From an uncultured Spartobacteria bacterium (GTDB taxonomy: Bacteria; Verrucomicrobiota; Verrucomicrobiia; Chthoniobacterales; JAATET01), in NCBI GenBank assembly GCA_938011325.1, contig CALLUD010000011.1, positions 126,901 to 190,900 on the forward strand: a DNA stretch of 64,000 nt, read 5' to 3'. The position numbers and the translations under genes were made by a program. The notes beneath the pieces are model-generated. The model was not told the origin of the DNA. It worked only from the letters and a program-made list of their open reading frames with translations, and ran no database searches. Positions 6,432 through 16,698 of the stretch are shown here, in pieces. Positions within the stretch are counted from its first letter, which is position 1, and each line of letters begins with the position of its first letter.

Positions 6432-7781
6432 ATGCTGCGCCATTGCGTCTTGTTCCTCGTCGTCCTGATGCTCCCGCTCGATTCGCGGGCAGCGACCGCG
6501 CGGGTTGAGCCGAATGAGGTGCTCGTCGGGTCATTTCGCGGCTGGGGCACCTCGTTGTGCTGGTGGGCAAACGTGATCGGCGGGCTCAAGAATCACGAAG
6601 AGTTCGCGGACGCCATTTTCACGGACCTCGGGCTCACCATCGTTCGCTACAACATCGGCGGCGGCGAGAATCCCGCCCTCCCCACGCTGCCATCCGATCC
6701 GCGCGCCCGCATGGAGGGCTTTCAAGACAAGGACCGAAACTGGAACTTCGAGGCGGATGCGAATCAGCGGCGCATGTTGTGCGCCGCCGTCGCGCGCGGC
6801 GTGGAGCATGTCGATGCCTTCGCGAATTCTCCGCCGTGGTGGATGACTGTCAGCAAAAGCGTGACCGGCAATCTGAATCCCCTCGCGAACAATCTTCGCA
6901 AGGACGCCGAGGAGGATTTCGCAAACTACCTCGTCACGGCTATGGCAGCCCTCGAAAAGCAGGATGGCGTCCGCTTCGACACGATCACGCCGATGAACGA
7001 GCCGCTTTCTCCGTGGTGGCTGGGAAATCGCCAGGAAGGCTGCCATATGAACGCCGAGCAGCAGGTCCGCGTGCTCGATCACCTTCACGCCGCGCTGGAA
7101 AAGGCGAAGCTTTCGGTCGGTCTCGTCGCGCCGGAAACCTTCAGCACGGACGAGGCGATTCGCGCGCTGAATGAATATCCGGAATCCACCCGCAGCCGGC
7201 TCCGCGCCATCGCCACCCACGGCTACGACACCCGCAAGGCCTCCGAGCTTCGCGCCGCAGCGGGAAACACCCCGATCTGGCTCTCCGAGCACGGCGACAG
7301 CGACGCGAGCGGAATGGAGACCGCGCGTGCCATCCTCGAGGATCTTCACGCGCTCCATTTCGAGGAGTGGGTCTACTGGCAGGCCGTGGAGCCCGACAAC
7401 GGCTGGGGGCTCATCGTCAACGCACTCGACGGCAAATCCACGGAATGGAAAACGACGCCGCGATATGACGTCCTGCGTCAGTTCACGAAATTCATCCGCC
7501 CCGGGAGCCGCATTGTTTCCACCGGAGATCCGGATTCCATCGCCGCACTTTCCTCCGACGGCAATTCACTCGCCATCGTCGCGCTGAACGACCGCGAATC
7601 CCCCGAGCCGTTCACCGTGGATCTCTCCAAAACGGATTTTCAAGCCGAAGAGGCGACCGCCGTTCGAACTTCCCCAACCGAACGCTTTGCGAACCAGCCG
7701 TCGTTGCGGATCGAACACGGCAGGCTCGACACCACCCTGCCGCCGAAGTCCGTAACGACCTTCGTGATTTCGAAGCCGTAA
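6432..7781 (+). CDS. Secreted glycoside hydrolase family 30 (O-glycosyl hydrolase, beta-1,6-glycanase/glucosylceramidase-like)
   Basis: Signal peptide, then GWGTSLCWWANVIGG, FANSPPWWMT, TPMNEP (acid/base Glu) and WLSEHGD (nucleophile Glu). Confidence 0.8.
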   Translation: MLRHCVLFLVVLMLPLDSRAATARVEPNEVLVGSFRGWGTSLCWWANVIGGLKNHEEFADAIFTDLGLTIVRYNIGGGENPALPTLPSDPRARMEGFQDKDRNWNFEADANQRRMLCAAVARGVEHVDAFANSPPWWMTVSKSVTGNLNPLANNLRKDAEEDFANYLVTAMAALEKQDGVRFDTITPMNEPLSPWWLGNRQEGCHMNAEQQVRVLDHLHAALEKAKLSVGLVAPETFSTDEAIRALNEYPESTRSRLRAIATHGYDTRKASELRAAAGNTPIWLSEHGDSDASGMETARAILEDLHALHFEEWVYWQAVEPDNGWGLIVNALDGKSTEWKTTPRYDVLRQFTKFIRPGSRIVSTGDPDSIAALSSDGNSLAIVALNDRESPEPFTVDLSKTDFQAEEATAVRTSPTERFANQPSLRIEHGRLDTTLPPKSVTTFVISKP

Positions 7782-7784
7782 CCG

Positions 7785-8501
7785 TCACCCCAAGGCGTCG
7801 CGCAGCCGGGAATGCGCCACCCGCCCCACCCGCAACGGCTCGCCGATTCCGGCAAGGTGCAGCAGCGTATCGTCCCGCGACACGCGCTCGATTTTCGTGA
7901 TGCGGTCCATGTTCACGATTCGCGAGCGATCCACGCGCAGGAACGGTGGGTTGGGCAGCTGACGCTCATACGCCCCAAGGTTCTGGCAGATCATCAGCGC
8001 GGGCTCACCCGCCACGAAAATCCTCGTAAAATCACCGTCCGCCTCGAGCACGGTCAGGGTGTCGAGAGTTGCCACAAGCGTTCGTCCCGGCGTGCGAAGG
8101 CAGATGCGATCCCCGGGCGAATAGGTGCTTTCGGCCGCAGCGTTCAACCCGCACGCCGCGCGCAGGCGTTGCACCGCGATCGCGAGCCTCGTCGCCCGCA
8201 CCGGCTTGAGAAGGTAGTCGACCGCCTCGACTTCGAAGGCGCGCACCGCGTGCTCGGAATGCGCGGTCACAAAAACGACCTTGGGCGGTCGTTCGACCTC
8301 CTTGAGCAGCTCGAAACCATCCGCGCGTGGCATCCGGATGTCGAGAAACACGGCGTCCGGCTTCTTTGCGCTCAACAGGCTCCGCGCAGCGGCCACGCCA
8401 TCCGCCTCCCCGACAATTTCCAGGTCCGGCATGCGCGCCAGCGATTGCCGCAGCGCCTGGCGCGCCAGCCGTTCATCATCGACGAGCGCTACGCGGAGCA
8501 T
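7785..8501 (-). CDS. LytTR-family response regulator
   Basis: Receiver domain (VALVDDERLAR...DAVFLDIRMPRADGFEL) plus a C-terminal LytTR DNA-binding domain. Confidence 0.9.
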   Translation of the reverse strand: MLRVALVDDERLARQALRQSLARMPDLEIVGEADGVAAARSLLSAKKPDAVFLDIRMPRADGFELLKEVERPPKVVFVTAHSEHAVRAFEVEAVDYLLKPVRATRLAIAVQRLRAACGLNAAAESTYSPGDRICLRTPGRTLVATLDTLTVLEADGDFTRIFVAGEPALMICQNLGAYERQLPNPPFLRVDRSRIVNMDRITKIERVSRDDTLLHLAGIGEPLRVGRVAHSRLRDALG

Positions 8502-9634
8502 GGTTCGCCTCGAAGTTGAAGTTCCGCCGTCACGATCCCATCCATCTGGCTCAATTCAAACAACGCCCGACCTGGATAGTGAAACTCCAGTCGCCGTCGC
8601 AGCGTTTCCAATCCGACGCCTTCCACCACCTCGAGGTTCTCCGGCAGGCGTCCCGGGTTGCTCACGGTCACGGTAAGCATATCGCCGTCGCAGCCCGCCC
8701 AGATCCGCAACTCGCACCGTTCCTCCTGCAACCCGTGCTTCACCGCATTCTCGATCAACGGCTGCAGCAGGAAACTCGGCACCATTCGCTGCCGCGCCTC
8801 GACCTCGGCCTCGACGCTCGCCGACATCCGGTCGCCAAAACGCGCCTGCTCGATGCGCAAATACGCCGTCACCGCGTCCAGCTCCGCAGCAAGCGGCGCG
8901 AGCACATGATGACGGTGGTCCAGCGAGTAGCGGAGGTAGTCCGACAGCTCATGCACCATCTCGAGGGCGGCATCGGGATTCGTGCTGATTTCCGACGCGA
9001 TGCCGTTGAGCGAATTGAAAAGGAAATGCGGGTCCAGCTGCGCGCGGAGCAGTTGAAGCTCCATCCGCTGGGCCTCGCTGGCGGCCTGTGCGGCGCGCTG
9101 GTGCTCGATGCGCGCCGCGTCGCGCGTCTTCAAGGCAAAGAACGTCAGGCTCCACGTCAGATACAGCAGCGAAATGAAGATGATCCGAAAGAGCCACTCC
9201 TCGCGCGGGGTCCATCCCGTGGTATGCCAGCCGGCGATTTCCACCACGCCGCGCACGATCGCCGCCTGCAGCAGGCCCGCGGCGACACAAAGAAAGATCA
9301 TCCACGCCGCGCTCTTGACGCGAAACGGATCGCTCAGTGAAGGCCGCCGATACACAAGGTAAAGCCCGCCGGAGATCAAAAAGGCAAGGGGCTCCTGCAA
9401 CAGCGTCAGGCAGAACGCCCGCTGGGCATCCGTGATCGCGGCATACCGGATGAGAAACCCGAAAACCCCGAAGACGCTCCAGATCACGAGGTTCAGCTTC
9501 CAGAACGTAGCCGGATTCGAAACCCACGATGTCAGGCGGTCGCGCACCGGCACATCGTGCGGGTCCGTTCTGGGTGGGTCAACGCTGCGCGCCTTGCTTG
9601 CTGCCGTGTTCATCGAGTTTTTCGCCCGGCTCAC
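8489..9634 (-). CDS. LytS/YehU-type sensor histidine kinase
   Basis: Multi-TM N-terminus. Has the His_kinase motif LLRAQLDPHFLFNSLNGI and the HATPase motif LLQPLIENAVKHG. An alternative ATG lies at 9613. Overlaps the response-regulator gene by 13 nt. Confidence 0.9.
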   Translation of the reverse strand: MSRAKNSMNTAASKARSVDPPRTDPHDVPVRDRLTSWVSNPATFWKLNLVIWSVFGVFGFLIRYAAITDAQRAFCLTLLQEPLAFLISGGLYLVYRRPSLSDPFRVKSAAWMIFLCVAAGLLQAAIVRGVVEIAGWHTTGWTPREEWLFRIIFISLLYLTWSLTFFALKTRDAARIEHQRAAQAASEAQRMELQLLRAQLDPHFLFNSLNGIASEISTNPDAALEMVHELSDYLRYSLDHRHHVLAPLAAELDAVTAYLRIEQARFGDRMSASVEAEVEARQRMVPSFLLQPLIENAVKHGLQEERCELRIWAGCDGDMLTVTVSNPGRLPENLEVVEGVGLETLRRRLEFHYPGRALFELSQMDGIVTAELQLRGEPCSA

Positions 9635-9692
9635 CGAGCGGAGGAGGACAGCCGTTATTTCATGACCAAATTTCGAGGCGCATCAACCCACC

Positions 9693-12600
9693 ATGATGAC
9701 CACACGCCTTTTCCGCGTTTCCCTCCTTCTGTCCACGTTCCTTGGTCTGTTCCGTCCTCTGGACGTGATGGCCCATGGCTCGATGGCGAATCCCATCAGC
9801 CGCTCGTATCTCGGGTATCTCGAGAATCCGCAGAATCCGAAATCCGCAGCAATCAAGGCGGCGGTCGCCGTTGGCGGCACGCAGGCATTCTACGACTGGC
9901 ACGAGGTCAACGGCCTCTTTCCCGCGCGGGACTACCAGGCACGAATCCCCGACGGACAACTCCCCGGCGCCGGCCGCGACAAATACAAGGGCTTGAACCT
10001 CGCCCGCGCCGACTGGCCCGCCACGACCGTCGCACCCGGGCCGTATCAATGCGTCTTCTACGCGCACACGCCGCACGAACCGAGCTACTTCGAGGTCTAT
10101 CTCACGAAGCCCGGTTACGATCCGCTCCAGCCGCTCAAATGGTCGGACCTCGAGCGGCTTCCCAATCCCACCGACACCGTGCTCGACGGGATGAACTACC
10201 GGTTCACGATCAATCTGCCGCAACGCACCGGACGTCACGTCCTCTATGTGATCTGGCAACGCATCGATCCCGCGGGCGAGGCGTTCTTTTCGACAAGCGA
10301 TCTCGTCTTCACCACGGGTGGAGGCGGAAATCCGCTCCCGACACCCACTCCGGTCCCTACGCCTCCGACTCACTCGCATCCGCACGTTCATCTCGACGTC
10401 ACCAGCGACTGGGGCGCCGGATTTGTCGGCAAGGTCACGGTCGAAAACAACACCGGCGCGAACCTCCGTGAGTGGACCGTCCAGTTCGACCTGCCTCGCG
10501 AGATCGTCAACATCTGGGATGCAAAGATCGTCTCCAGGGTCGGCAACACCTACACGATCCGGAACGAAAGCTGGAACGGCACGGTGCCCGCAGGCGGCTC
10601 GTTCACCTTCGGATTCCAGGCCGCCGGCGGAAACGGAAACATCTCGCTGGAGAATTTCACCCTGACCGGCTCCGGTGGTCAGACACCAACGCCCACCCCT
10701 GTTCCCACACCGGTCCCCACCCCGACCCCGGCTCCAACGCCCGTCCCGACTCCAACCCCGAAGCCTACTCCCGCTCCGACTCCGAGCCCCACACCATCCC
10801 CGACCCCGGTCCCAACCCCCACGCCGAATCCGGGTTCACGAAACACCACGGTTCGCATTGGCGACGTCACGGTAACGTTCAGGGTCGTCAACGACTGGAT
10901 TTCGGGATTTCAGAGCGAGGTCACGATCAAGAACGAATCCTCGGCAGTCATTCGCGACTGGCAGCTCGCTTTCCGGCTGAACCGCACGATCAGCTCGATC
11001 TGGAACGCGCGCGTCGCGAGCCAGAGCGGATCCCTGCTCACATTCGACGCGGCAACCTTCGCATGGAACAAGGTTATTCCCGCCAAAGGCAGCGTGAGTT
11101 TCGGCTTCGTCGCGAGCCCGGGTGCATTCACCACTCCTCCGACGGATTTCTCGTTCAAAGGCTCCGCGCCGAATCCCACCCCCACCCCGAAGCCTACTCC
11201 CACGCCCACGCCGTCTCCCACGCCCAAGCCAACACCGAACCCCACACCCGTTCCGACGCCAGGTCCCACACCGGCGCCGACCTCCCCGCAACTCTCGGTG
11301 GCGGACGTCACGGTAACGGAACCGTCATCCGGCACGACCTCCGCAGAGGTCGCGATCACGCTCGACAAGGCTCCGTCGCTGGCGGTCACCATGCTCGTGC
11401 AGACCGCGGATGGCACCGCCACCTCGCCGGCGGATTACTCCTCCGTTTCCCAGACGCTCATCTTCACCGCCGGCCAGACGCGCAAGACGATCAACATTCC
11501 CATTCACGCCGACAACGTGAACGAGCCGGATGAAACGTTCACCGTCCGGATCTCCGGGGCGGTCGGAGCGACCATTCTGGACGGCACCGGCGTCGTCACG
11601 ATCCGCAACTTCACGAAAGGCGGCGGCTTCAACTACGCGGAGGCGCTGCAGAAATCGCTCTTCTTCTACGATGCACAGCGAAGCGGCGATCTGCCGGAGG
11701 ACTTCCGCATCAATTGGCGCGGCGACTCCGCACTCGAGGACGGCGCCGATGTCGGTATCGACCTCAGCGGCGGTTATTACGACGCGGGCGATCACGTGAA
11801 ATTCGGGCTCCCCATGCTCAGCAGCATGACGCTGCTCGCCTGGGGCGCCATCGAGTATCCGCAGGGCTACGCCGCCGCCGGGCAGAAAGCGACCATCCTC
11901 GATGCGATCCGCTGGGGCATGGATTGGGTCATCAAGGCGCATCCGAGCCCGAATGTCTTCTACGGCCAGGTCGGCAAAGGCGGCACGGACCACAGCTACT
12001 GGGGTCCGCCGGAGGTCATGACGATGCCGCGTCCCGCCTACGCGATCACCGCCCAAAAGCCCGGCAGCGAGCTCGCCGGCGAGGGAGCTGCGGCGCTCGC
12101 CGCCGCATCCATCCTCTTCAAGAACGAGGATCCCGCATATGCCGCGACCCTGCTGCGGCACGCACGCGAGCTCTTCGCGTTCGGGGACACCTATCGCGGC
12201 AGCTACGTCAACGCGATTCCCGACGCGAGGGAGTTCTACAACTCCCATTCCGGTTACATCGACGAGCTGATCTGGGGCGCCGTGTGGCTCTACCGCGCGA
12301 CGGGCGAGCAAATCTATCTGCAAAAAGCCGAGTCGCTCTACGCACAGCATTACACCGGCGCCTCGTTGCGCTGGACCCACAATTGGGACGACAAGATCTA
12401 CGGCGCATCCATCCTCCTCGCGCAGCTCACGGGCAAGTCGATCTACACGACGAACGCCGAGAGATTCCTCAACTACTGGACCGTCGGCGACAACGGCGCG
12501 AAAATCACCACGACCCCCGGTGGCCTCGCATGGTTGCAGCAATGGGGATCGCTGCGCTACGCGGCAAACACCGCGCTGCTCGCATTCATCTACGCCGACC

Positions 12601-13460
12601 GGGTGCGCGACTACAACGGCCGCTACCACGACTTCGCGAAACGCCAGGTCGACTACGCGCTTGGCAACAACCCGCTCGGCCGCAGCTACGTCGTCGGCTT
12701 TGGCAACAACCCGCCAGTCAATCCGCATCATCGCGGCGCGCATGGATCCTGGGCCAACAGTATCCAGGAGCCCCGCAACAACCGGCACATCCTCTACGGC
12801 GCCCTTGTCGGGGGCCCCTCCGCACCGAACGACACCGCCTACGAGGACGATCGCAGCAACTACATCACCAACGAAGTCGCGCTCGACTACAACGCGGGCT
12901 TCACCGGCGCACTGGCTAAGCTCGTCGAGGAAAATGGCGGCACGCCGCTCGCCAACTTCCCGCAGCCGGAAACGCCGGACGACGAATTTTTCGTGGAGGC
13001 ATCGATCAACCAGCAGGGCAACGGTTTCACGGAGATTCGCGCCCTGTTGAACAACCGCTCCGCCTTCCCGGCCGGCGCGTCCGAATTTCTCTCCTTCCGC
13101 TACTACGTGGACCTCACCGAGACGATCGCCGCCGGCATCCAGCCCTCGCAGATCAATGTCGTCACCAACTACAGCCAGGGCGCCCGCGTGTCGAAGCTGC
13201 TCCCCCACGACGTCTCGCGAAACATCTACTACGTCGAGGCGGACTTTACCGGCACGCTGATCGCCCCCGGCAGCAGCTCGACCTATCGCAAGGAAGTGCA
13301 GTTCCGCCTGAGCCTACCGGCCAACGCTCCGGCCAGCGCGTGGAACCCGGCCAACGACTTCTCCTACGCGGGCCTGCGAACCGGCAACGCAAACACCGTG
13401 AAGACAGACCGCATCCCCCTCTTCCAGGAAGGTCAATTGCTCGGCGGAAGATTGCCGTAG
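9693..13460 (+). CDS. Secreted multidomain cellulase: AA10 LPMO - CBM2 - CBM2 - Calx-beta - GH9 endoglucanase - CBM3c
   Basis: 1255-aa ORF. The domain motifs are listed in the sub-features below. Confidence 0.9.
9774..10313 (+). other. AA10 (CBM33) lytic polysaccharide monooxygenase domain
   Basis: The signal peptide ends ...LDVMA and is followed by [12 protein letters not shown], so His would be residue 1 after cleavage. Also [21 protein letters not shown] and [25 protein letters not shown]. Confidence 0.75.
10389..10670 (+). other. CBM2-like carbohydrate-binding module 1
   Basis: [45 protein letters not shown]...[18 protein letters not shown]. Confidence 0.7.
10671..10841 (+). repeat. Pro/Thr linker-coding low-complexity repeat
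   Basis: Encodes [57 protein letters not shown], with (CCN-ACN)-type periodicity. Confidence 0.9.
10845..11159 (+). other. CBM2-like carbohydrate-binding module 2
   Basis: [44 protein letters not shown]...[18 protein letters not shown]. Confidence 0.7.
11163..11288 (+). repeat. Pro/Thr linker-coding low-complexity repeat
   Basis: Encodes [42 protein letters not shown]. Confidence 0.9.
11289..11609 (+). other. Calx-beta-like domain
   Basis: [24 protein letters not shown]...[50 protein letters not shown]. Confidence 0.65.
11622..12932 (+). other. GH9 endoglucanase catalytic domain
   Basis: [60 protein letters not shown]. Confidence 0.9.
12975..13457 (+). other. CBM3c-like module following GH9
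   Basis: [30 protein letters not shown]...FRYYVDLTE. The position directly after GH9 matches processive theme-B GH9 enzymes. Confidence 0.65.
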
Positions 13461-13481: not shown

Positions 13482-13518
13482 AGGTCGCCCTCATCGTTGG
13501 GGGCGGCCTTCGCTTTTT
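13482..13518 (+). terminator. Candidate intrinsic terminator after the cellulase gene
   Basis: Stem aggtcgccc / gggcggcct (8 of 9 pairs) followed by tcgcttttt. It lies in the convergent gap and overlaps the purU stop. Confidence 0.45.
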
Positions 13519-14730: not shown

Positions 14731-16698
14731 ATGAAAACGACACGCACCAAAAGATACCGCCACACAGGCGTTGCCGCCTTGGTGGCCCTCACCGCAGCAC
14801 TCGGCAGCCATACCGCGTCCGCCACTGATATTCAGTGGATTCTATGGGACGACGAGGGCCCGTTTACCACCGCGGCGAACTGGGATACGGATACCGTGCC
14901 CGGAGAAGAAGACCATGCAATCTTCAACGCGGGGGGGATCGCAACGATCTCGGAGGAAGACAACCTCACGGTCAATTTTCTTACCATCAACGAAGGCGGA
15001 CTCCGATTTGAGGGAGGCAGCCTGACATCCGCTGCCACAGGCGGTGATGTCCGTATTGGTGCCGGCGCCGGCACCGCATCCGTGACCATGGAGGGTGGCA
15101 CGCTGAAGGTGAACAGCACCCTGCGCGTCGCGGACAATGGCACCGCCACCTTCGATCTGACGGGTGCCACCCTCGAACACACGAATGGCTTCCTGAGCTT
15201 CGGGGGCGGCAGCTCCGGAAATTTCACCGGGACCTTTTCCGGAGATTCCAAATTGTATCACGTCGGCAGCTGGTTCCTCTTTGGGGACGGAGAGGGAACT
15301 TCCGCGACCGTCACCTTTCAAGACACCACGGAGGTGATCTCCAACGACTGGACGTTCTTCGGCAAGGGCGGCAGGGCGGATGTGACCTTCAAGGACGACT
15401 CCAGTTTCACAAACACCGGCGGCGCCACCATCATCGGAGAGGGAAATCCCGGAGAAGCCCCCGCGAAACTCACGCTCACCGGGAAAGCCACTCTGGAACA
15501 TCAAGGTAGCAGCATGTTCCCGGTGGGACACAATGGAGGCATCGGCGCGCTTGAAATGAGCGGAGAAAGCACGGCTTCCGTTGCCGGCGAAGTCTACATC
15601 GGAAACGCCACCCGTAACGAAGGCTCCATTCTCAGTTACGGCATCGTCGATCTCTCGGGCGATGCCGAGTTCAAGACCGTGGGCAAGAAGTTTGTCATCT
15701 CCCGCTTCAGCGGCACCGGAGATGTATCTGTTTCCGAAAATGCAGTCCTGAATGCCGGAGACGGCATCAGCGTTGGAGGCGTCAACGACGGCATCGTGGT
15801 CGGAGAAAACGGAACGGCAACCCTGACGATTTCGGACTCGGCGATCGTAAAGACCGCCCCCACCGATCACATTTTCATCGGCAGCAGTCCCAACTCGAAC
15901 TCAGCGTTTATCGTCGCAGACGGCACGGTGAACCTCAATGGCGGCAGCCTGACCGCGACCGACGCCAACATCTTCCTCGGACTGAACAACAACAACAACA
16001 CCGGAGGAGCGAACAACAACATCGGCCGTCTCTACCTGAATGGGGGAACGGTCTCCGCGAACCTCTTCGTCAAGGGAACTGGCTCCGCCATCATTAAATT
16101 CAACGGCTCGACGGTGAAAGCGACCGATTCGAGCGATGACTACTTCTCGGGATTCGACAGCGCCGACCTGGAGGTGCAGAGCGGCGGGCTCAAGTTCCAC
16201 ACCAACGGGTTCACCGTAGGAATCAGTCAGAGCCTTGCCGGCGAGGGCGGGCTGCAGAAGCTGGGAACCGGCACGCTCACGGTGGAAGGTGCCAATACCT
16301 ATACCGGCGCCACAACAGTGTCTGAAGGAACCCTGCTGGTCACCGGCTCCCTGGAGGGCAGCACGTGGTTGAGCGTCGCCACCGGCGCGACTCTCGAGAT
16401 CGCAAGCAACTTCTCCCTGAATGACGAGATCGTGCTGGCGCTGGTCACCGGTTCAAACGTCGTGCTTTCTTTCACCGGCACGGAGACCATCGGCGCGCTT
16501 TCCATCAACGGCGAGTATCTCGAGATCGGCGAATACTCACTCGCCGAGCTGCAAGCCATCGCCCCGGAGATCTTCAGCGGTAATTCCAACGCCATGCTCA
16601 ACATCACCTCGGCCGTGCCGGAGCCGGGCGTCGCAATGCTGTTCGGGTTGGGAGCCGCCGTGCTCGTCTTCACCCGTCGGCATCGCCGCAGCGCCTGA
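14731..16698 (+). CDS. Large secreted protein with autotransporter-associated beta-strand repeats and a C-terminal PEP-CTERM sorting domain
   Basis: Signal peptide. Gly/Thr/Asn-rich beta-helix-like body with GGLQKLGTGTLTVEGANTYTGATTVSEGTLLVTGSL. The tail is VPEPGVAMLFGLGAAVLVFTRRHRRSA. Confidence 0.85.
   Translation: MKTTRTKRYRHTGVAALVALTAALGSHTASATDIQWILWDDEGPFTTAANWDTDTVPGEEDHAIFNAGGIATISEEDNLTVNFLTINEGGLRFEGGSLTSAATGGDVRIGAGAGTASVTMEGGTLKVNSTLRVADNGTATFDLTGATLEHTNGFLSFGGGSSGNFTGTFSGDSKLYHVGSWFLFGDGEGTSATVTFQDTTEVISNDWTFFGKGGRADVTFKDDSSFTNTGGATIIGEGNPGEAPAKLTLTGKATLEHQGSSMFPVGHNGGIGALEMSGESTASVAGEVYIGNATRNEGSILSYGIVDLSGDAEFKTVGKKFVISRFSGTGDVSVSENAVLNAGDGISVGGVNDGIVVGENGTATLTISDSAIVKTAPTDHIFIGSSPNSNSAFIVADGTVNLNGGSLTATDANIFLGLNNNNNTGGANNNIGRLYLNGGTVSANLFVKGTGSAIIKFNGSTVKATDSSDDYFSGFDSADLEVQSGGLKFHTNGFTVGISQSLAGEGGLQKLGTGTLTVEGANTYTGATTVSEGTLLVTGSLEGSTWLSVATGATLEIASNFSLNDEIVLALVTGSNVVLSFTGTETIGALSINGEYLEIGEYSLAELQAIAPEIFSGNSNAMLNITSAVPEPGVAMLFGLGAAVLVFTRRHRRSA

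What the first reader, a model, noticed from the sequence alone, without database searches (positions are those of the whole stretch)
9693..13460. A single secreted 1255-aa protein fuses an AA10 LPMO to a GH9-CBM3c endoglucanase through two CBM2s and a Calx-beta module
Seen in sequence: the signal peptide ends ...VMA and is followed directly by [12 protein letters not shown], so His becomes residue 1 after cleavage, as the LPMO copper histidine brace requires. The AA10 core blocks follow ([21 protein letters not shown] and [25 protein letters not shown]). After that come two CBM2-pattern modules, a Calx-beta-like module, a GH9 with DAGDHVKF / HHRGAHGS / [11 protein letters not shown], and a CBM3c-like tail. 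Established knowledge: oxidative (AA10) and hydrolytic (GH9) cellulose cleavage normally sit on separate proteins that act in synergy. Covalent AA10-GH fusions are rare, and I know of no characterised AA10-GH9-CBM3c fusion. Calx-beta is also not a usual cellulase module. Inference: this could be a self-contained oxidative plus processive-hydrolytic cellulase. It is the most unusual object in the window.
Basis: partly seen in the sequence, partly recalled or inferred. Interest (0 to 1): 0.75.

Follow-up and report, generated by a model that had tools for sequence, protein, structure and literature searches.

The report
Secreted LPMO–GH9 cellulase fusion enzyme
This is a real, intact gene for one secreted protein that joins a copper oxidase for crystalline polysaccharides (AA10 LPMO) to a processive GH9 cellulase; the design is common in Verrucomicrobiota but has never been tested, and the oxidase's own substrate (cellulose or chitin) is still open.

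Summary
The ORF at 9693-13460 encodes 1255 aa in the order signal peptide, AA10, CBM2, CBM2, Calx-beta, GH9, CBM3c. Every module scores above Pfam's cut-off and all catalytic residues are present.

It is not an assembly chimera. The identical protein occurs on at least 4 independently assembled contigs. The same module order recurs at 55-68% identity in 11 or more other protein clusters and in many species-representative Verrucomicrobiota genomes. The linker DNA has no long exact repeat.

Three parts of the interpretation need correcting:
- The architecture is not a rarity. It is one form of a Verrucomicrobiota-wide family in which an AA10-CBM2 head carries interchangeable tails: GH9, GH9-CBM3c, GH18, GH5...GH18, GH18-GH9, or none.
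- The AA10's closest characterised relatives (CbpD, ScLPMO10D, CjLPMO10A) are chitin-specific. AA10 heads 72% identical to this one are fused to GH18 chitinases. An all-cellulose enzyme is therefore plausible but unproven.
- Calx-beta is a spacer module reused across this lineage's carbohydrate-active enzymes, joined to GH9 by a flexible hinge.

New here: a divergent LytS-type kinase and LytTR regulator pair lies next to these genes, together with a conserved 9-bp direct repeat (window 9609-9638).

No characterised AA10-GH9 enzyme turned up in the literature. I rate it a new variant of a known kind (bicatalytic LPMO-GH enzymes).

The parts
7785..8501 (-). Response regulator with a receiver domain and a LytTR DNA-binding domain; probable regulator of the AA10-GH9 gene
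   Evidence: Pfam Response_reg 1.4e-23 and LytTR 2.5e-12. An orthologue (50-67% identity) lies next to the AA10 gene in 28 of 80 related loci.
8489..9553 (-). Membrane histidine kinase of the LytS/YehU type (PF06580), in an operon with the regulator and divergent from the AA10-GH9 gene. The mechanical ORF runs to 9634; the gene call on the identical contig L001 ends at 9553.
   Evidence: Pfam His_kinase 6.5e-25; gene call; conserved adjacency.
9609..9638 (+). Imperfect direct repeat TTCATCGAG-N12-CTCACCGAG (21 bp start to start), 55 nt before the ATG; candidate LytTR binding site
   Evidence: The pattern lies at the same place (-260 to -100 of the His1 codon, + strand) in 22 of 79 related loci, against 0.24 expected. 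Eleven of those loci were not used to derive the pattern.
9693..9773 (+). Sec signal peptide, residues 1-27, with predicted cleavage VMA|H
9774..10313 (+). AA10 LPMO domain, residues 28-207. Histidine brace H28 and H128; second sphere R190, E196, F198; L2 motif Y67-D-W-H70-E-V-N; A124-H125-T126-P127-H128.
   Evidence: Pfam; PDB sequence search; alignments; AF2 model with pLDDT 95.1; Foldseek.
10386..10673 (+). First CBM2, residues 232-327, without the usual disulfide
   Evidence: Pfam CBM_2 3.8e-43, two stretches.
10674..10841 (+). Pro/Thr linker 1, residues 328-383
   Evidence: Translation; degenerate DNA repeat family D1.
10854..11159 (+). Second CBM2, residues 388-489, which also hits CBM49
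11160..11288 (+). Pro/Thr linker 2, residues 490-532
11289..11606 (+). Calx-beta module, residues 533-638, joined to GH9 by a 7-residue hinge (FTKGGG, 639-645)
   Evidence: Pfam Calx-beta 5.8e-16. The AF2 model is all-beta with pLDDT 85-94 and falls below 50 at the hinge.
11628..12938 (+). GH9 catalytic domain, residues 646-1082; catalytic D697, D700 and E1061
   Evidence: Pfam 4.9e-163. These residues are invariant in 35 aligned sequences. PDB and Foldseek matches.
12960..13460 (+). CBM3c, residues 1090-1255, docked on GH9, followed by the stop codon
   Evidence: Pfam CBM_3. It matches the CBM3c chain 2xfg_B at 3e-41. The two-domain superposition on E4 and BlCel9A gives TM 0.96.
13498..13512 (+). 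Terminator-like hairpin followed by a T-run, 38 nt after the stop codon
   Evidence: This is a consensus scan only, and the number of hits was no higher than in shuffled sequence.

Best explanation
The gene encodes a genuine secreted bicatalytic enzyme of a Verrucomicrobiota bacterium (Chthoniobacterales/Terrimicrobiaceae-like).

Proposed mechanism (inferred from the known behaviour of these families unless marked otherwise):
- Sec export and cleavage after Ala27 make His28 the first residue. This is shown from sequence only.
- His28 and His128 hold copper in a histidine brace, with Phe198, Glu196 and Arg190 as the second sphere.
- Two CBM2 modules on long Pro/Thr linkers anchor the protein on a crystalline beta-1,4-polysaccharide surface.
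- The reduced AA10 makes oxidative, probably C1, chain breaks there.
- The tethered GH9-CBM3c unit, a Cel9A/E4-type processive endoglucanase, enters at such breaks and amorphous spots and hydrolyses cellulose chains processively.
- The covalent tether gives the kind of intramolecular synergy shown for the AA10-CBM5-GH18 enzyme Jd1381.
- Calx-beta is a hinged spacer.

The gene belongs to a family in which one conserved AA10-CBM2 head has acquired different hydrolase tails. It is probably switched on by the adjacent LytS-type kinase and LytTR regulator through the direct repeat at 9609-9638.

The polymer the AA10 oxidises is not settled. I lean towards cellulose, or cellulose plus chitin.
For: - Modules and catalytic residues.
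- AA10 residues: H1, H101, W161, R163, E169 and F171 (mature numbering) are conserved in 126-130 of 130 non-redundant family members.
- AA10 fold: model pLDDT 95.1, TM 0.92-0.93 to solved LPMOs.
- GH9-CBM3c: 55-56% identical to BlCel9A and T. fusca E4 and superposes on them as a two-domain unit.
- Architecture: the full module order is conserved in P0002-P0012, L021, L026 and L029.
- Contiguity: the identical protein is on several independent contigs.
- Regulation: the two-component system is adjacent in 28 of 80 loci, and the repeat sits at a fixed position in 22 of 79 loci against 0.24 expected.
- Synergy precedent: the tethered AA10-GH18 enzyme Jd1381 outperforms its separated domains (PMC10154629).
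- Hints of a shift away from chitin: none of 41 GH9-fused heads has Thr at the 'T' of the TAxH motif, against 22 of 34 GH18-fused heads. None has the Asn/Thr pair, against 14 of 34. The second sphere (Arg/Glu/Phe) is the one shared with C1 cellulose-active subclade A1 (PMC10067821). CBM2 is the module attached to cellulose-active AA10s (PMC4144037).
Against: - No activity data exist for any member of this family.
- The nearest characterised AA10s with a demonstrated activity are chitin-only.
- Heads with identical motif residues (His / Pro-Thr) occur with both GH9 (13) and GH18 (10) tails. L020 and L027 (GH9) nest among GH18-fused heads in the tree.
- No GH9-fused head has the Phe/Trp pair typical of cellulose-active AA10s. 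This protein has His70/His125.
- The motif counts are not phylogenetically independent, and the tree has no support values.
- The repeat pattern also occurs inside coding regions of the window (8 hits), so only its conserved position counts as evidence.
- No sigma-70-like promoter was found.
- How the protein crosses the outer membrane is unknown.
Confidence: 0.6

Rival explanations
1. The AA10 head is a chitin-only LPMO, like its nearest characterised relatives. The protein would then be a two-substrate enzyme, a chitin oxidase plus a cellulase, made by tail swapping. It would be useful on mixed or alternating substrates, with no oxidative-hydrolytic synergy on cellulose.
For: - CbpD, ScLPMO10D and CjLPMO10A are the best sequence and structure matches and are chitin-specific. 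Tma12 also ranks among the best matches but the two papers disagree on its activity.
- The L2 motif YDWHEVN resembles YDWNGVN in CbpD and YEWNEVN in Tma12.
- Heads 72% identical are fused to GH18.
- Cerasicoccus and 'MiH-22' proteins carry a chitinase and a cellulase-family domain behind the same head.
- CBM2 also binds chitin (PMC10154629).
Against: - The chitin-type polar pair (Asn or Gln with Thr or Ser) is missing from all 41 GH9-fused heads.
- A fusion to a processive cellulase conserved in at least 27 clusters argues that the pairing is selected.
- Identity to the chitin-active enzymes is only about 50%, and subclade A also contains cellulose-active members.
Confidence: 0.3
2. The GH9 tail does not mainly act on cellulose. 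Its substrate would be another beta-1,4 polymer, such as chitosan, mixed-linkage glucan or xyloglucan.
For: GH9 contains glucosaminidases and xyloglucanases (PDB 5dgq, 6gdt and 6dht appear). In Cerasicoccus, GH9 sits next to GH18 in one protein.
Against: Those enzymes are remote (E 1e-12 or weaker; rmsd 12-14 A). The match to E4/Cel9G/CelR-type processive endoglucanases is 47-56% identity over both GH9 and CBM3c. The catalytic and subsite motifs are invariant.
Confidence: 0.07
3. The ORF is an assembly chimera that joins an AA10-CBM2 gene to a CBM2-GH9 gene inside the Pro/Thr-linker repeats.
For: Many carbohydrate-active enzymes of these genomes carry similar PT linkers. An unfused CBM2-CBM2-GH9-CBM3c protein with its own signal peptide exists (P0018, 79% identity in the GH9 domain).
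Against: - The identical 1255-aa protein is on at least 4 contigs from different assemblers, up to 349 kb.
- The same order is found in 11 or more diverged clusters with different linker sequences.
- AA10-GH9 fusions are present in isolate genomes (Cerasicoccus) and on contigs of 359-775 kb.
- The longest exact repeat in the gene is 15 nt.
- G+C content is uniform across the gene.
Confidence: 0.02
4. The AA10 module is a non-catalytic binding or adhesion domain.
For: Some AA10 proteins act mainly as adhesins or virulence factors. The otherwise conserved active-site Ala is Thr here (T126).
Against: Both brace histidines, the gatekeeper Glu, the Arg and the axial Phe are invariant in about 130 family members. 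His always directly follows the signal-peptide cleavage site.
Confidence: 0.03

Closest known systems
Jd1381 of Jonesia denitrificans (JdLPMO10A-CBM5-GH18), described in a 2023 review as the only characterised bicatalytic LPMO (PMC10154629)
   Same: N-terminal AA10, then CBM(s), then a glycoside hydrolase in one secreted polypeptide. It is the precedent for intramolecular oxidative-hydrolytic synergy.
   Different: The partner there is a GH18 chitinase and the AA10 is a typical chitin-active type. Here the partner is a GH9-CBM3c processive endoglucanase, with two CBM2 modules, a Calx-beta spacer and an AA10 from a different clade.
Theme-B processive endoglucanases: T. fusca Cel9A/E4 (1JS4, 1TF4), B. 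licheniformis BlCel9A (8U49), C. cellulolyticum Cel9G (1G87), CelR and CelQ
   Same: GH9 fused without a linker to CBM3c; 47-56% identity; TM 0.94-0.96 over both domains; catalytic Asp-Asp and Glu conserved.
   Different: Those enzymes carry Fn3/CBM2, CBM3b or dockerin modules C-terminally and have no LPMO. Here everything else is N-terminal, and a Calx-beta module directly precedes GH9.
AA10 subclade A2: ScLPMO10D (7ZJB), CbpD (8C5N, 7SQX), Tma12 (6IF7)
   Same: Best sequence matches (E 1e-49 to 1e-55; Foldseek reports 49-52% identity) and best structural matches (TM 0.92-0.93). Same Arg/Glu/Phe second sphere and a similar YDW-x-E/G-V-N L2 motif.
   Different: - ScLPMO10D and CbpD are chitin-active. 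The two papers disagree on Tma12: the CbpD paper calls it strictly chitin-active, while the ScLPMO10D paper says no oxidative activity has been shown.
- They carry the polar pair Asn/Thr or Asn/Ser, two disulfides and Ala in the TAxH motif.
- This protein has His70/His125, no disulfide and Thr126, plus one extra residue in [12 protein letters not shown].
- It has no cell-wall sorting signal and no GbpA2 or CBM73 modules.
AA10 subclade A1: ScLPMO10C/CelS2 (4OY7), C1-oxidising, cellulose-active, AA10-CBM2
   Same: AA10 followed by CBM2; the same Arg/Glu/Phe second sphere (PMC10067821).
   Different: Much weaker similarity (E 2.8e-22, 32-33% identity, TM 0.85-0.87). The Phe/Trp pair typical of cellulose-active AA10s is absent.
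LytS/LytTR-type two-component systems (AgrA, ComE, AlgR class of regulators)
   Same: PF06580 kinase with a LytTR regulator. The target gene is preceded by two 9-bp direct repeats with a 12-bp spacer. That this repeat geometry is typical of LytTR sites comes from my own knowledge.
   Different: The repeat consensus TTCRnCGAS is not one I can match to a described LytTR box. Binding has not been tested, and the signal sensed is unknown.

Membership tests
AA10 lytic polysaccharide monooxygenase | Significant match to the family profile and the LPMO fold | tested here: met
   PF03067 E 1.4e-43, full profile 1-183. AF2 model pLDDT 95.1; TM 0.92-0.93 to 7ZJB, 8C5N and 6IF7.
AA10 lytic polysaccharide monooxygenase | His as residue 1 of the mature protein (histidine brace, part 1) | tested here: met
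   The sequence reads ...DVMA|HGS. In 94 of 94 distinct relatives, Gly or Ala sits at -1 directly before His, after a hydrophobic core. The cleavage itself was not tested (no SignalP, no N-terminal sequencing).
AA10 lytic polysaccharide monooxygenase | Second brace His, axial Phe or Tyr, and gatekeeper Glu or Gln | tested here: met
   H128, F198 and E196 (plus R190) are conserved in 129-130 of 130 family members.
AA10 lytic polysaccharide monooxygenase | Copper binding and oxidative cleavage of a polysaccharide | not testable with these tools
   Needs purified protein, EPR, and HPAEC or mass spectrometry of the products.
Chitin-active AA10 subclade A2 (ScLPMO10D/CbpD type) | Polar residue pair bridging L2 and the TAxH motif (Asn76/Thr131 in ScLPMO10D; Asn43/Ser101 in CbpD) | tested here: not met
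   His70/His125 here. None of 41 GH9-fused heads has Thr or Ser with Asn. The definition comes from PMC10067821 and PMC9344471.
Chitin-active AA10 subclade A2 (ScLPMO10D/CbpD type) | Closest sequence and structure neighbours | tested here: met
Cellulose-active C1 AA10 subclade A1 (ScLPMO10C type) | Large hydrophobic Phe/Trp pair at the same two positions | tested here: not met
   His/His here; His with Ala, Pro, Asp or Ser in the other GH9-fused heads. Trp at the second position occurs only in some CBM-only marine members and in the Caldilineaceae protein P0033.
Cellulose-active C1 AA10 subclade A1 (ScLPMO10C type) | Arg/Glu/Phe second coordination sphere and an appended CBM2 | tested here: met
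   R190, E196, F198 and two CBM2 modules. The second sphere is shared with A2, so it does not discriminate.
GH9 theme B (processive endoglucanase, GH9-CBM3c) | GH9 profile match with the catalytic Asp-x-x-Asp base pair and the Glu acid | tested here: met
   PF00759 E 4.9e-163. D697, D700 and E1061 are invariant in 35 sequences.
GH9 theme B (processive endoglucanase, GH9-CBM3c) | A CBM3c fused directly to GH9 and docked in line with the catalytic cleft | tested here: met
   2xfg_B (a CBM3c chain) matches at 3e-41. The model superposes on 8U4A, 1TF4 and 1G87 over about 620 columns spanning both domains, with TM 0.95-0.96 and rmsd 1.7-1.9 A.
GH9 theme B (processive endoglucanase, GH9-CBM3c) | Processive endo-cellulase activity | not testable with these tools
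   Needs the soluble-to-insoluble reducing-sugar ratio on filter paper or BMCC.
GH9 themes C/D (Ig-like domain packed on GH9, as in CelD and AaCel9A) | An N-terminal beta-sandwich rigidly packed against the catalytic domain | tested here: inconclusive
   pLDDT falls below 50 at the Calx-GH9 junction (model residues 122-124). Superposition on 1CLC and 3GZK gives rmsd 11-12 A. No coordinates or PAE were available to measure contacts. Calx-beta is absent from close orthologues.
Calx-beta domain | Profile match above the curated threshold; beta-sandwich | tested here: met
   59 bits against a cut-off of 27. All-beta model with pLDDT 85-94. Ca2+ binding was not tested.
CBM2 | Profile match | tested here: met
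   E 3.8e-43, two stretches. Binding specificity (cellulose or chitin) was not tested. The usual disulfide is absent (one Cys in the whole protein).
Bicatalytic LPMO-GH enzymes (Jd1381 type) | An N-terminal LPMO and a glycoside hydrolase in one polypeptide | tested here: met
Bicatalytic LPMO-GH enzymes (Jd1381 type) | The full-length enzyme outperforms its separated domains | not testable with these tools
   Needs truncation and synergy assays.
LytS/LytTR regulon | Kinase and LytTR regulator next to the target gene, with direct repeats in the promoter region | tested here: met
   Binding and regulation were not tested.

The most novel reading that the evidence does not exclude
The verrucomicrobial AA10-CBM2 head could be a general cassette for attacking crystalline beta-1,4 polymers, with broad or easily retuned specificity for cellulose and chitin. 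On this reading it sits under a dedicated LytS/LytTR sensor, and lineages have repeatedly bolted different hydrolases onto it: GH9-CBM3c, GH18, GH5, and even GH18 plus GH9. The natural series of heads differs mainly at two positions (70 and 125 here: Asn/Thr, His/Thr, His/Pro, His/His, His/Trp). That series would then be a ready-made map of how AA10 substrate specificity is set.
Probability: 0.25. Interest if true: 0.75.

Novelty: new variant of a known kind. Interest (0 to 1): 0.58.

Why it matters
LPMO-cellulase synergy is central to biomass conversion, and engineered LPMO-cellulase fusions are built for that purpose. This is a natural, widely conserved fusion of an LPMO to a processive GH9 cellulase, and it appears never to have been tested.

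The same head occurs with cellulase, chitinase and mixed tails, and it sits between the chitin-active A2 and cellulose-active A1 AA10 clades. The family therefore makes an open question directly testable: which residues decide chitin versus cellulose specificity in AA10s. Cultured Cerasicoccus strains carry a tri-catalytic relative and could serve as an experimental system.

It also suggests that Chthoniobacterales/Terrimicrobiaceae-type Verrucomicrobiota attack crystalline polysaccharides directly. One soil stable-isotope study classed Chthoniobacterales as non-cellulolytic secondary consumers (PMC8545098).

Tried and rejected
1. Chimeric assembly. Rejected on independent contigs, conserved architecture and the lack of long exact repeats.
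2. Calx-beta as the rigid Ig-like N-domain of theme C/D GH9s. Not supported: low-confidence hinge, rmsd 11-12 A to CelD and AaCel9A, and the module is optional in orthologues.
3. Assigning AA10 specificity from published motifs. Inconclusive. The head has neither the chitin-type polar pair nor the cellulose-type Phe/Trp pair, and His/Pro-Thr heads occur with both GH9 and GH18 tails.
4. Ile191 (WQR-I-DP) tracks GH9 tails, and Asp, Asn, Glu or Ser tracks GH18 tails. I did not use this as a cellulose signature, because as far as I recall ScLPMO10C has Ser there (from memory, not checked).
5. The AA10 tree was meant to show one fusion event. It shows GH9-fused heads in at least four places, but it is neighbour-joining without support values.
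6. The sigma-70 promoter scan found nothing.
7. The repeat pattern alone is not specific: 8 hits in the window, mostly inside genes. Only its positional conservation is used.
8. Literal searches for 'AA10-GH9', 'LPMO-GH9' and similar strings gave no papers. Broader searches gave only a one-off count of LPMO_10 with GH9 (1 in 3,619 GH9 proteins, PMC6626019).
9. No other AA10, GH9 or GH18 gene lies in the window. The neighbourhood is mostly housekeeping genes plus one GH30.

Full report
**1. What is there**

The window holds an uninterrupted ORF at 9693-13460 (+) of 1255 aa. Pfam finds, in order:
- LPMO_10 at 28-204 (E 1.4e-43)
- two CBM_2 modules (best 232-327; the second at about 388-489 also hits CBM49)
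- Calx-beta at 536-622 (59 bits, cut-off 27)
- Glyco_hydro_9 at 648-1074 (E 4.9e-163)
- CBM_3 at 1101-1182 (E 9e-10)

The two Pro/Thr linkers are residues 328-383 and 490-532. G+C content is even across the gene and its neighbours.

**2. Is it real and contiguous?**

- The identical 1255-aa sequence is recorded from NCBI, JGI, ENA and Logan assemblies, on contigs from 6 kb to 349 kb. One independent 9.5-kb Logan contig (SRR5251487) carries the gene with the same neighbours.
- A BLAST domain map shows exactly the same order, AA10-CBM2-CBM2-Calx-GH9-CBM3c, in P0002-P0012. These are 55-68% identical and have different linker sequences.
- Within the gene the linker DNA repeats are only 60-70% alike. 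The longest exact direct repeat is 15 nt, too short to seed a false join.

I consider a chimera excluded for practical purposes.

**3. The cellulase half**

Residues 646-1255 match solved GH9-CBM3c processive endoglucanases over both domains: BlCel9A 8U49 (E 4e-222), T. fusca E4/Cel9A 1JS4 (2e-217) and Cel9G 1G87 (4e-188). The isolated CBM3c chain 2XFG_B matches at 3e-41.

D697, D700 and E1061 lie in motifs that are invariant in 35 aligned relatives.

An AlphaFold2 model of residues 521-1255 (pLDDT 88.9, pTM 0.76) superposes on 8U4A, 1TF4 and 1G87 with TM 0.95-0.96 and rmsd 1.7-1.9 A over about 620 columns. The CBM3c is therefore docked as in those enzymes.

**4. Calx-beta**

The module is a confident beta-sandwich in the model, but pLDDT drops below 50 at the 7-residue junction to GH9. 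GH9 enzymes with a packed Ig-like N-domain (CelD, AaCel9A) superpose only at rmsd 11-12 A.

The module is optional. Close orthologues L003, L005 and L007 lack it, and others have Calx but no CBM3c. It also occurs in GH5, GH8, GH18 and CBM-only proteins of the same lineages, and in cyanobacterial CBM2-Calx-GH9 proteins.

I read it as this lineage's counterpart of the Fn3 or X1 spacer, not as a special feature of this enzyme.

**5. The LPMO half**

His28 follows a canonical signal peptide. In 94 distinct relatives the residue before His is always Gly or Ala, after a hydrophobic core.

Across 130 non-redundant family members these positions are essentially invariant:
- the brace histidines (H28, H128)
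- W188
- R190
- the gatekeeper E196
- the axial F198

The domain model has pLDDT 95.1. By sequence the domain looks like a competent LPMO.

Its nearest solved relatives are as follows:

| Protein | phmmer E-value | Foldseek TM |
|---|---|---|
| CbpD | 2.6e-55 | 0.92-0.93 |
| ScLPMO10D | 1.7e-52 | 0.92-0.93 |
| Tma12 | 3e-49 | 0.93 |
| CjLPMO10A | 8e-30 | 0.89-0.91 |
| ScLPMO10C (cellulose-active) | 2.8e-22 | 0.85-0.87 |

ScLPMO10D is 'only active on chitin' although its second sphere resembles that of cellulose-active enzymes. It defines subclade A2, next to the cellulose-active A1 (PMC10067821). CbpD and CjLPMO10A are described as strictly chitin-active (PMC9344471). [quoted passage not shown]

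Both papers point to one discriminating pair of positions. It is polar (Asn or Gln with Thr or Ser) in chitin-active AA10s and Phe/Trp in cellulose-active ones. This protein has His70/His125, which is neither.

**6. The family and its tails**

A scan of species-representative genomes with an alignment of this AA10 type gave at least 575 confirmed stretches. Nearly all of the best 80 are Verrucomicrobiota: Chthoniobacterales, Terrimicrobiaceae, 'Spartobacteria', freshwater 'Methylacidiphilales' MAGs, Puniceicoccales including cultured Cerasicoccus, and Roseibacillus. A few are Phycisphaerales.

Reading the ORF behind each AA10 (spot-checked with Pfam) gives these tails:
- CBM2-CBM2-Calx-GH9-CBM3c (L021, L026, L029 and the window)
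- the same without Calx (L003, L005, L007)
- the same without CBM3c (L004, L011, L014, L016, L018)
- plain GH9 (L020, L063, L064, L075)
- CBM2-CBM2-GH18 (about 20 loci)
- CBM2x3-GH18-GH9 in three cultured Cerasicoccus species
- GH5-Calx-He_PIG-CBM2-GH18 (L033, L035, L045)
- CBM2 only (about 20 loci)

AA10 heads on GH18 tails are as close to this one (72% identity) as heads on GH9 tails are (65-85%). In a neighbour-joining tree the GH9-fused heads fall in at least four places (no support values).

There is also an unfused CBM2-CBM2-GH9-CBM3c with its own signal peptide (P0018, 79% identity in GH9). An independent AA10-CBM2-GH9-CBM3c-CBM2 exists in a Caldilineaceae (Chloroflexota) genome (P0033).

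The fusion is thus one recurrent outcome of module shuffling around a conserved head.

**7. Does the head differ with the tail?**

| Feature | GH18-fused heads | GH9-fused heads |
|---|---|---|
| Thr at the 'T' of TAxH | 22 of 34 | 0 of 41 |
| Canonical Asn/Thr pair | 14 of 34 | 0 of 41 |
| His / Pro-Thr combination | 10 | 13 |

These counts hint that GH9-fused heads have moved away from the chitin type. However, lineages are not independent, and L020 and L027 (GH9) are identical at these positions to their GH18-fused neighbours. No GH9-fused head has acquired Phe/Trp.

My estimate is about 55% that the AA10 oxidises cellulose (alone or with chitin), 35% chitin only, and 10% other or inactive.

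**8. Regulation (not in the original finding)**

Directly upstream and divergent lie a PF06580 (LytS/YehU-type) histidine kinase (8489-9553) and a receiver-LytTR regulator (7785-8501). Orthologues of this pair lie next to the AA10 gene in 28 of 80 loci, whatever the tail (GH9, GH18 or GH5-GH18).

The intergenic regions share an imperfect direct repeat, TTCRnCGAS-N12-TTCRnCGAS. In the window it is TTCATCGAG...CTCACCGAG at 9609-9638, 55 nt before the ATG.

A strict pattern derived from it occurs on the coding strand 100-260 nt before the His1 codon in 22 of 79 loci, where 0.24 are expected from the background rate. Eleven of these loci were not used to derive the pattern. The pattern also hits coding DNA elsewhere, so the evidence is its fixed position.

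Two 9-bp direct repeats with a 12-bp spacer is the geometry LytTR regulators bind; this is established knowledge and was not tested here. I infer that the two-component system controls the gene. The signal it senses is unknown.

**9. Literature**

- A 2023 review states that some LPMOs are part of bicatalytic enzymes and that only one, Jd1381 (AA10-CBM5-GH18), has been characterised. Its full-length form outperforms any mix of its domains (PMC10154629).
- Book et al. found a GH domain in 2 of 374 AA10 sequences (PMC4144037).
- A 2019 survey saw LPMO_10 with GH9 once among 3,619 GH9 proteins (PMC6626019).
- Searches for AA10-GH9 fusions, Verrucomicrobia LPMOs and Calx-beta cellulases found no description of this architecture.
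- The proteins in public records are named at most 'glycoside hydrolase family 9 protein'.

**10. Verdict**

The protein is a new variant of a known kind (bicatalytic LPMO-GH enzymes). It is abundant in nature but unstudied. The interesting open point is not that the fusion exists. It is that a head whose nearest relatives of proven activity are chitin-specific serves cellulase, chitinase and mixed tails under one conserved regulatory cassette.

Noticed in passing
window 7785-9692; L002-L080 upstream of the AA10 genes: A divergent LytS-type kinase and LytTR regulator pair lies next to AA10-fusion genes in 28 of 80 loci. A conserved direct repeat TTCRnCGAS-N12-TTCRnCGAS (window 9609-9638) lies before the AA10 gene in 22 of 79 loci, whatever the hydrolase tail.
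   Followed up: yes
L041, L044, L061 (Cerasicoccus frondis, C. maritimus, C. arenae); L033, L035, L045: Tri-catalytic relatives exist. AA10-CBM2x3-GH18-GH9 occurs in three cultured Cerasicoccus species. AA10-CBM2-GH5-Calx-He_PIG(x6)-CBM2-GH18 occurs in freshwater MAGs, including the 2.05-Mb chromosome OZ239145.1. Proteins that combine cellulase-family and chitinase domains were reported as very rare (6 of 217 multi-activity GHs, PMC4928363).
   Followed up: partly
window 9693-13460 (whole protein); family alignment: The 1255-aa secreted protein has a single Cys (C120). The two AA10 disulfides of CbpD and ScLPMO10D and the usual CBM2 disulfide are absent across the verrucomicrobial family (0-5 Cys per protein; P0027 has none in 1564 aa). 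The Chloroflexota analogue P0033 has 15. The reason is unknown.
   Followed up: partly
window 10062-10076 (A124-H125-T126-P127-H128): The active-site Ala of the AA10 'TAxH' motif, which normally shapes the copper site, is Thr here. It is Thr in 92 of 130 family members, Val in 23 and Ala in only 11. This might affect access to the copper or regioselectivity.
   Followed up: partly
window 10254-10289 ([12 protein letters not shown]): The residue after the conserved Arg is Ile in all GH9-fused heads but Asp, Asn, Glu or Ser in most GH18-fused heads. The family also has a one-residue insertion here relative to CbpD and ScLPMO10D.
   Followed up: partly
window 6432-7781 (+): A GH30-family glycosidase gene lies just upstream of the two-component system. 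The same GH30-regulator-kinase-AA10 order is kept in L002 (62-69% aa identity). No other carbohydrate-active enzyme gene lies nearby.
   Followed up: partly
P0033 (Caldilineaceae MAG, 1211 aa): An independent AA10-CBM2-GH9-CBM3c-CBM2 fusion occurs in Chloroflexota. Its AA10 is CbpD-like, contains Cys, and has Trp at the 'T' position of TAxH (Ser/Trp pair).
   Followed up: no
P0018 (921 aa): An unfused CBM2-CBM2-GH9-CBM3c with its own signal peptide is 79% identical in GH9 to this protein. This suggests the AA10 head has been gained or lost at the N-terminus.
   Followed up: no
window 14731-16698 (+): A 655-aa protein with a PATR autotransporter-type repeat and a C-terminal ...VPEPG...RRHRRSA tail that looks like a PEP-CTERM sorting signal.
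   Followed up: no
L078, L074, L059, L081, L069, L066 (marine Verrucomicrobiales, Roseibacillus): AA10-CBM2-only members carry His/Trp at the two specificity positions. That places Trp where cellulose-active AA10s have it.
   Followed up: no
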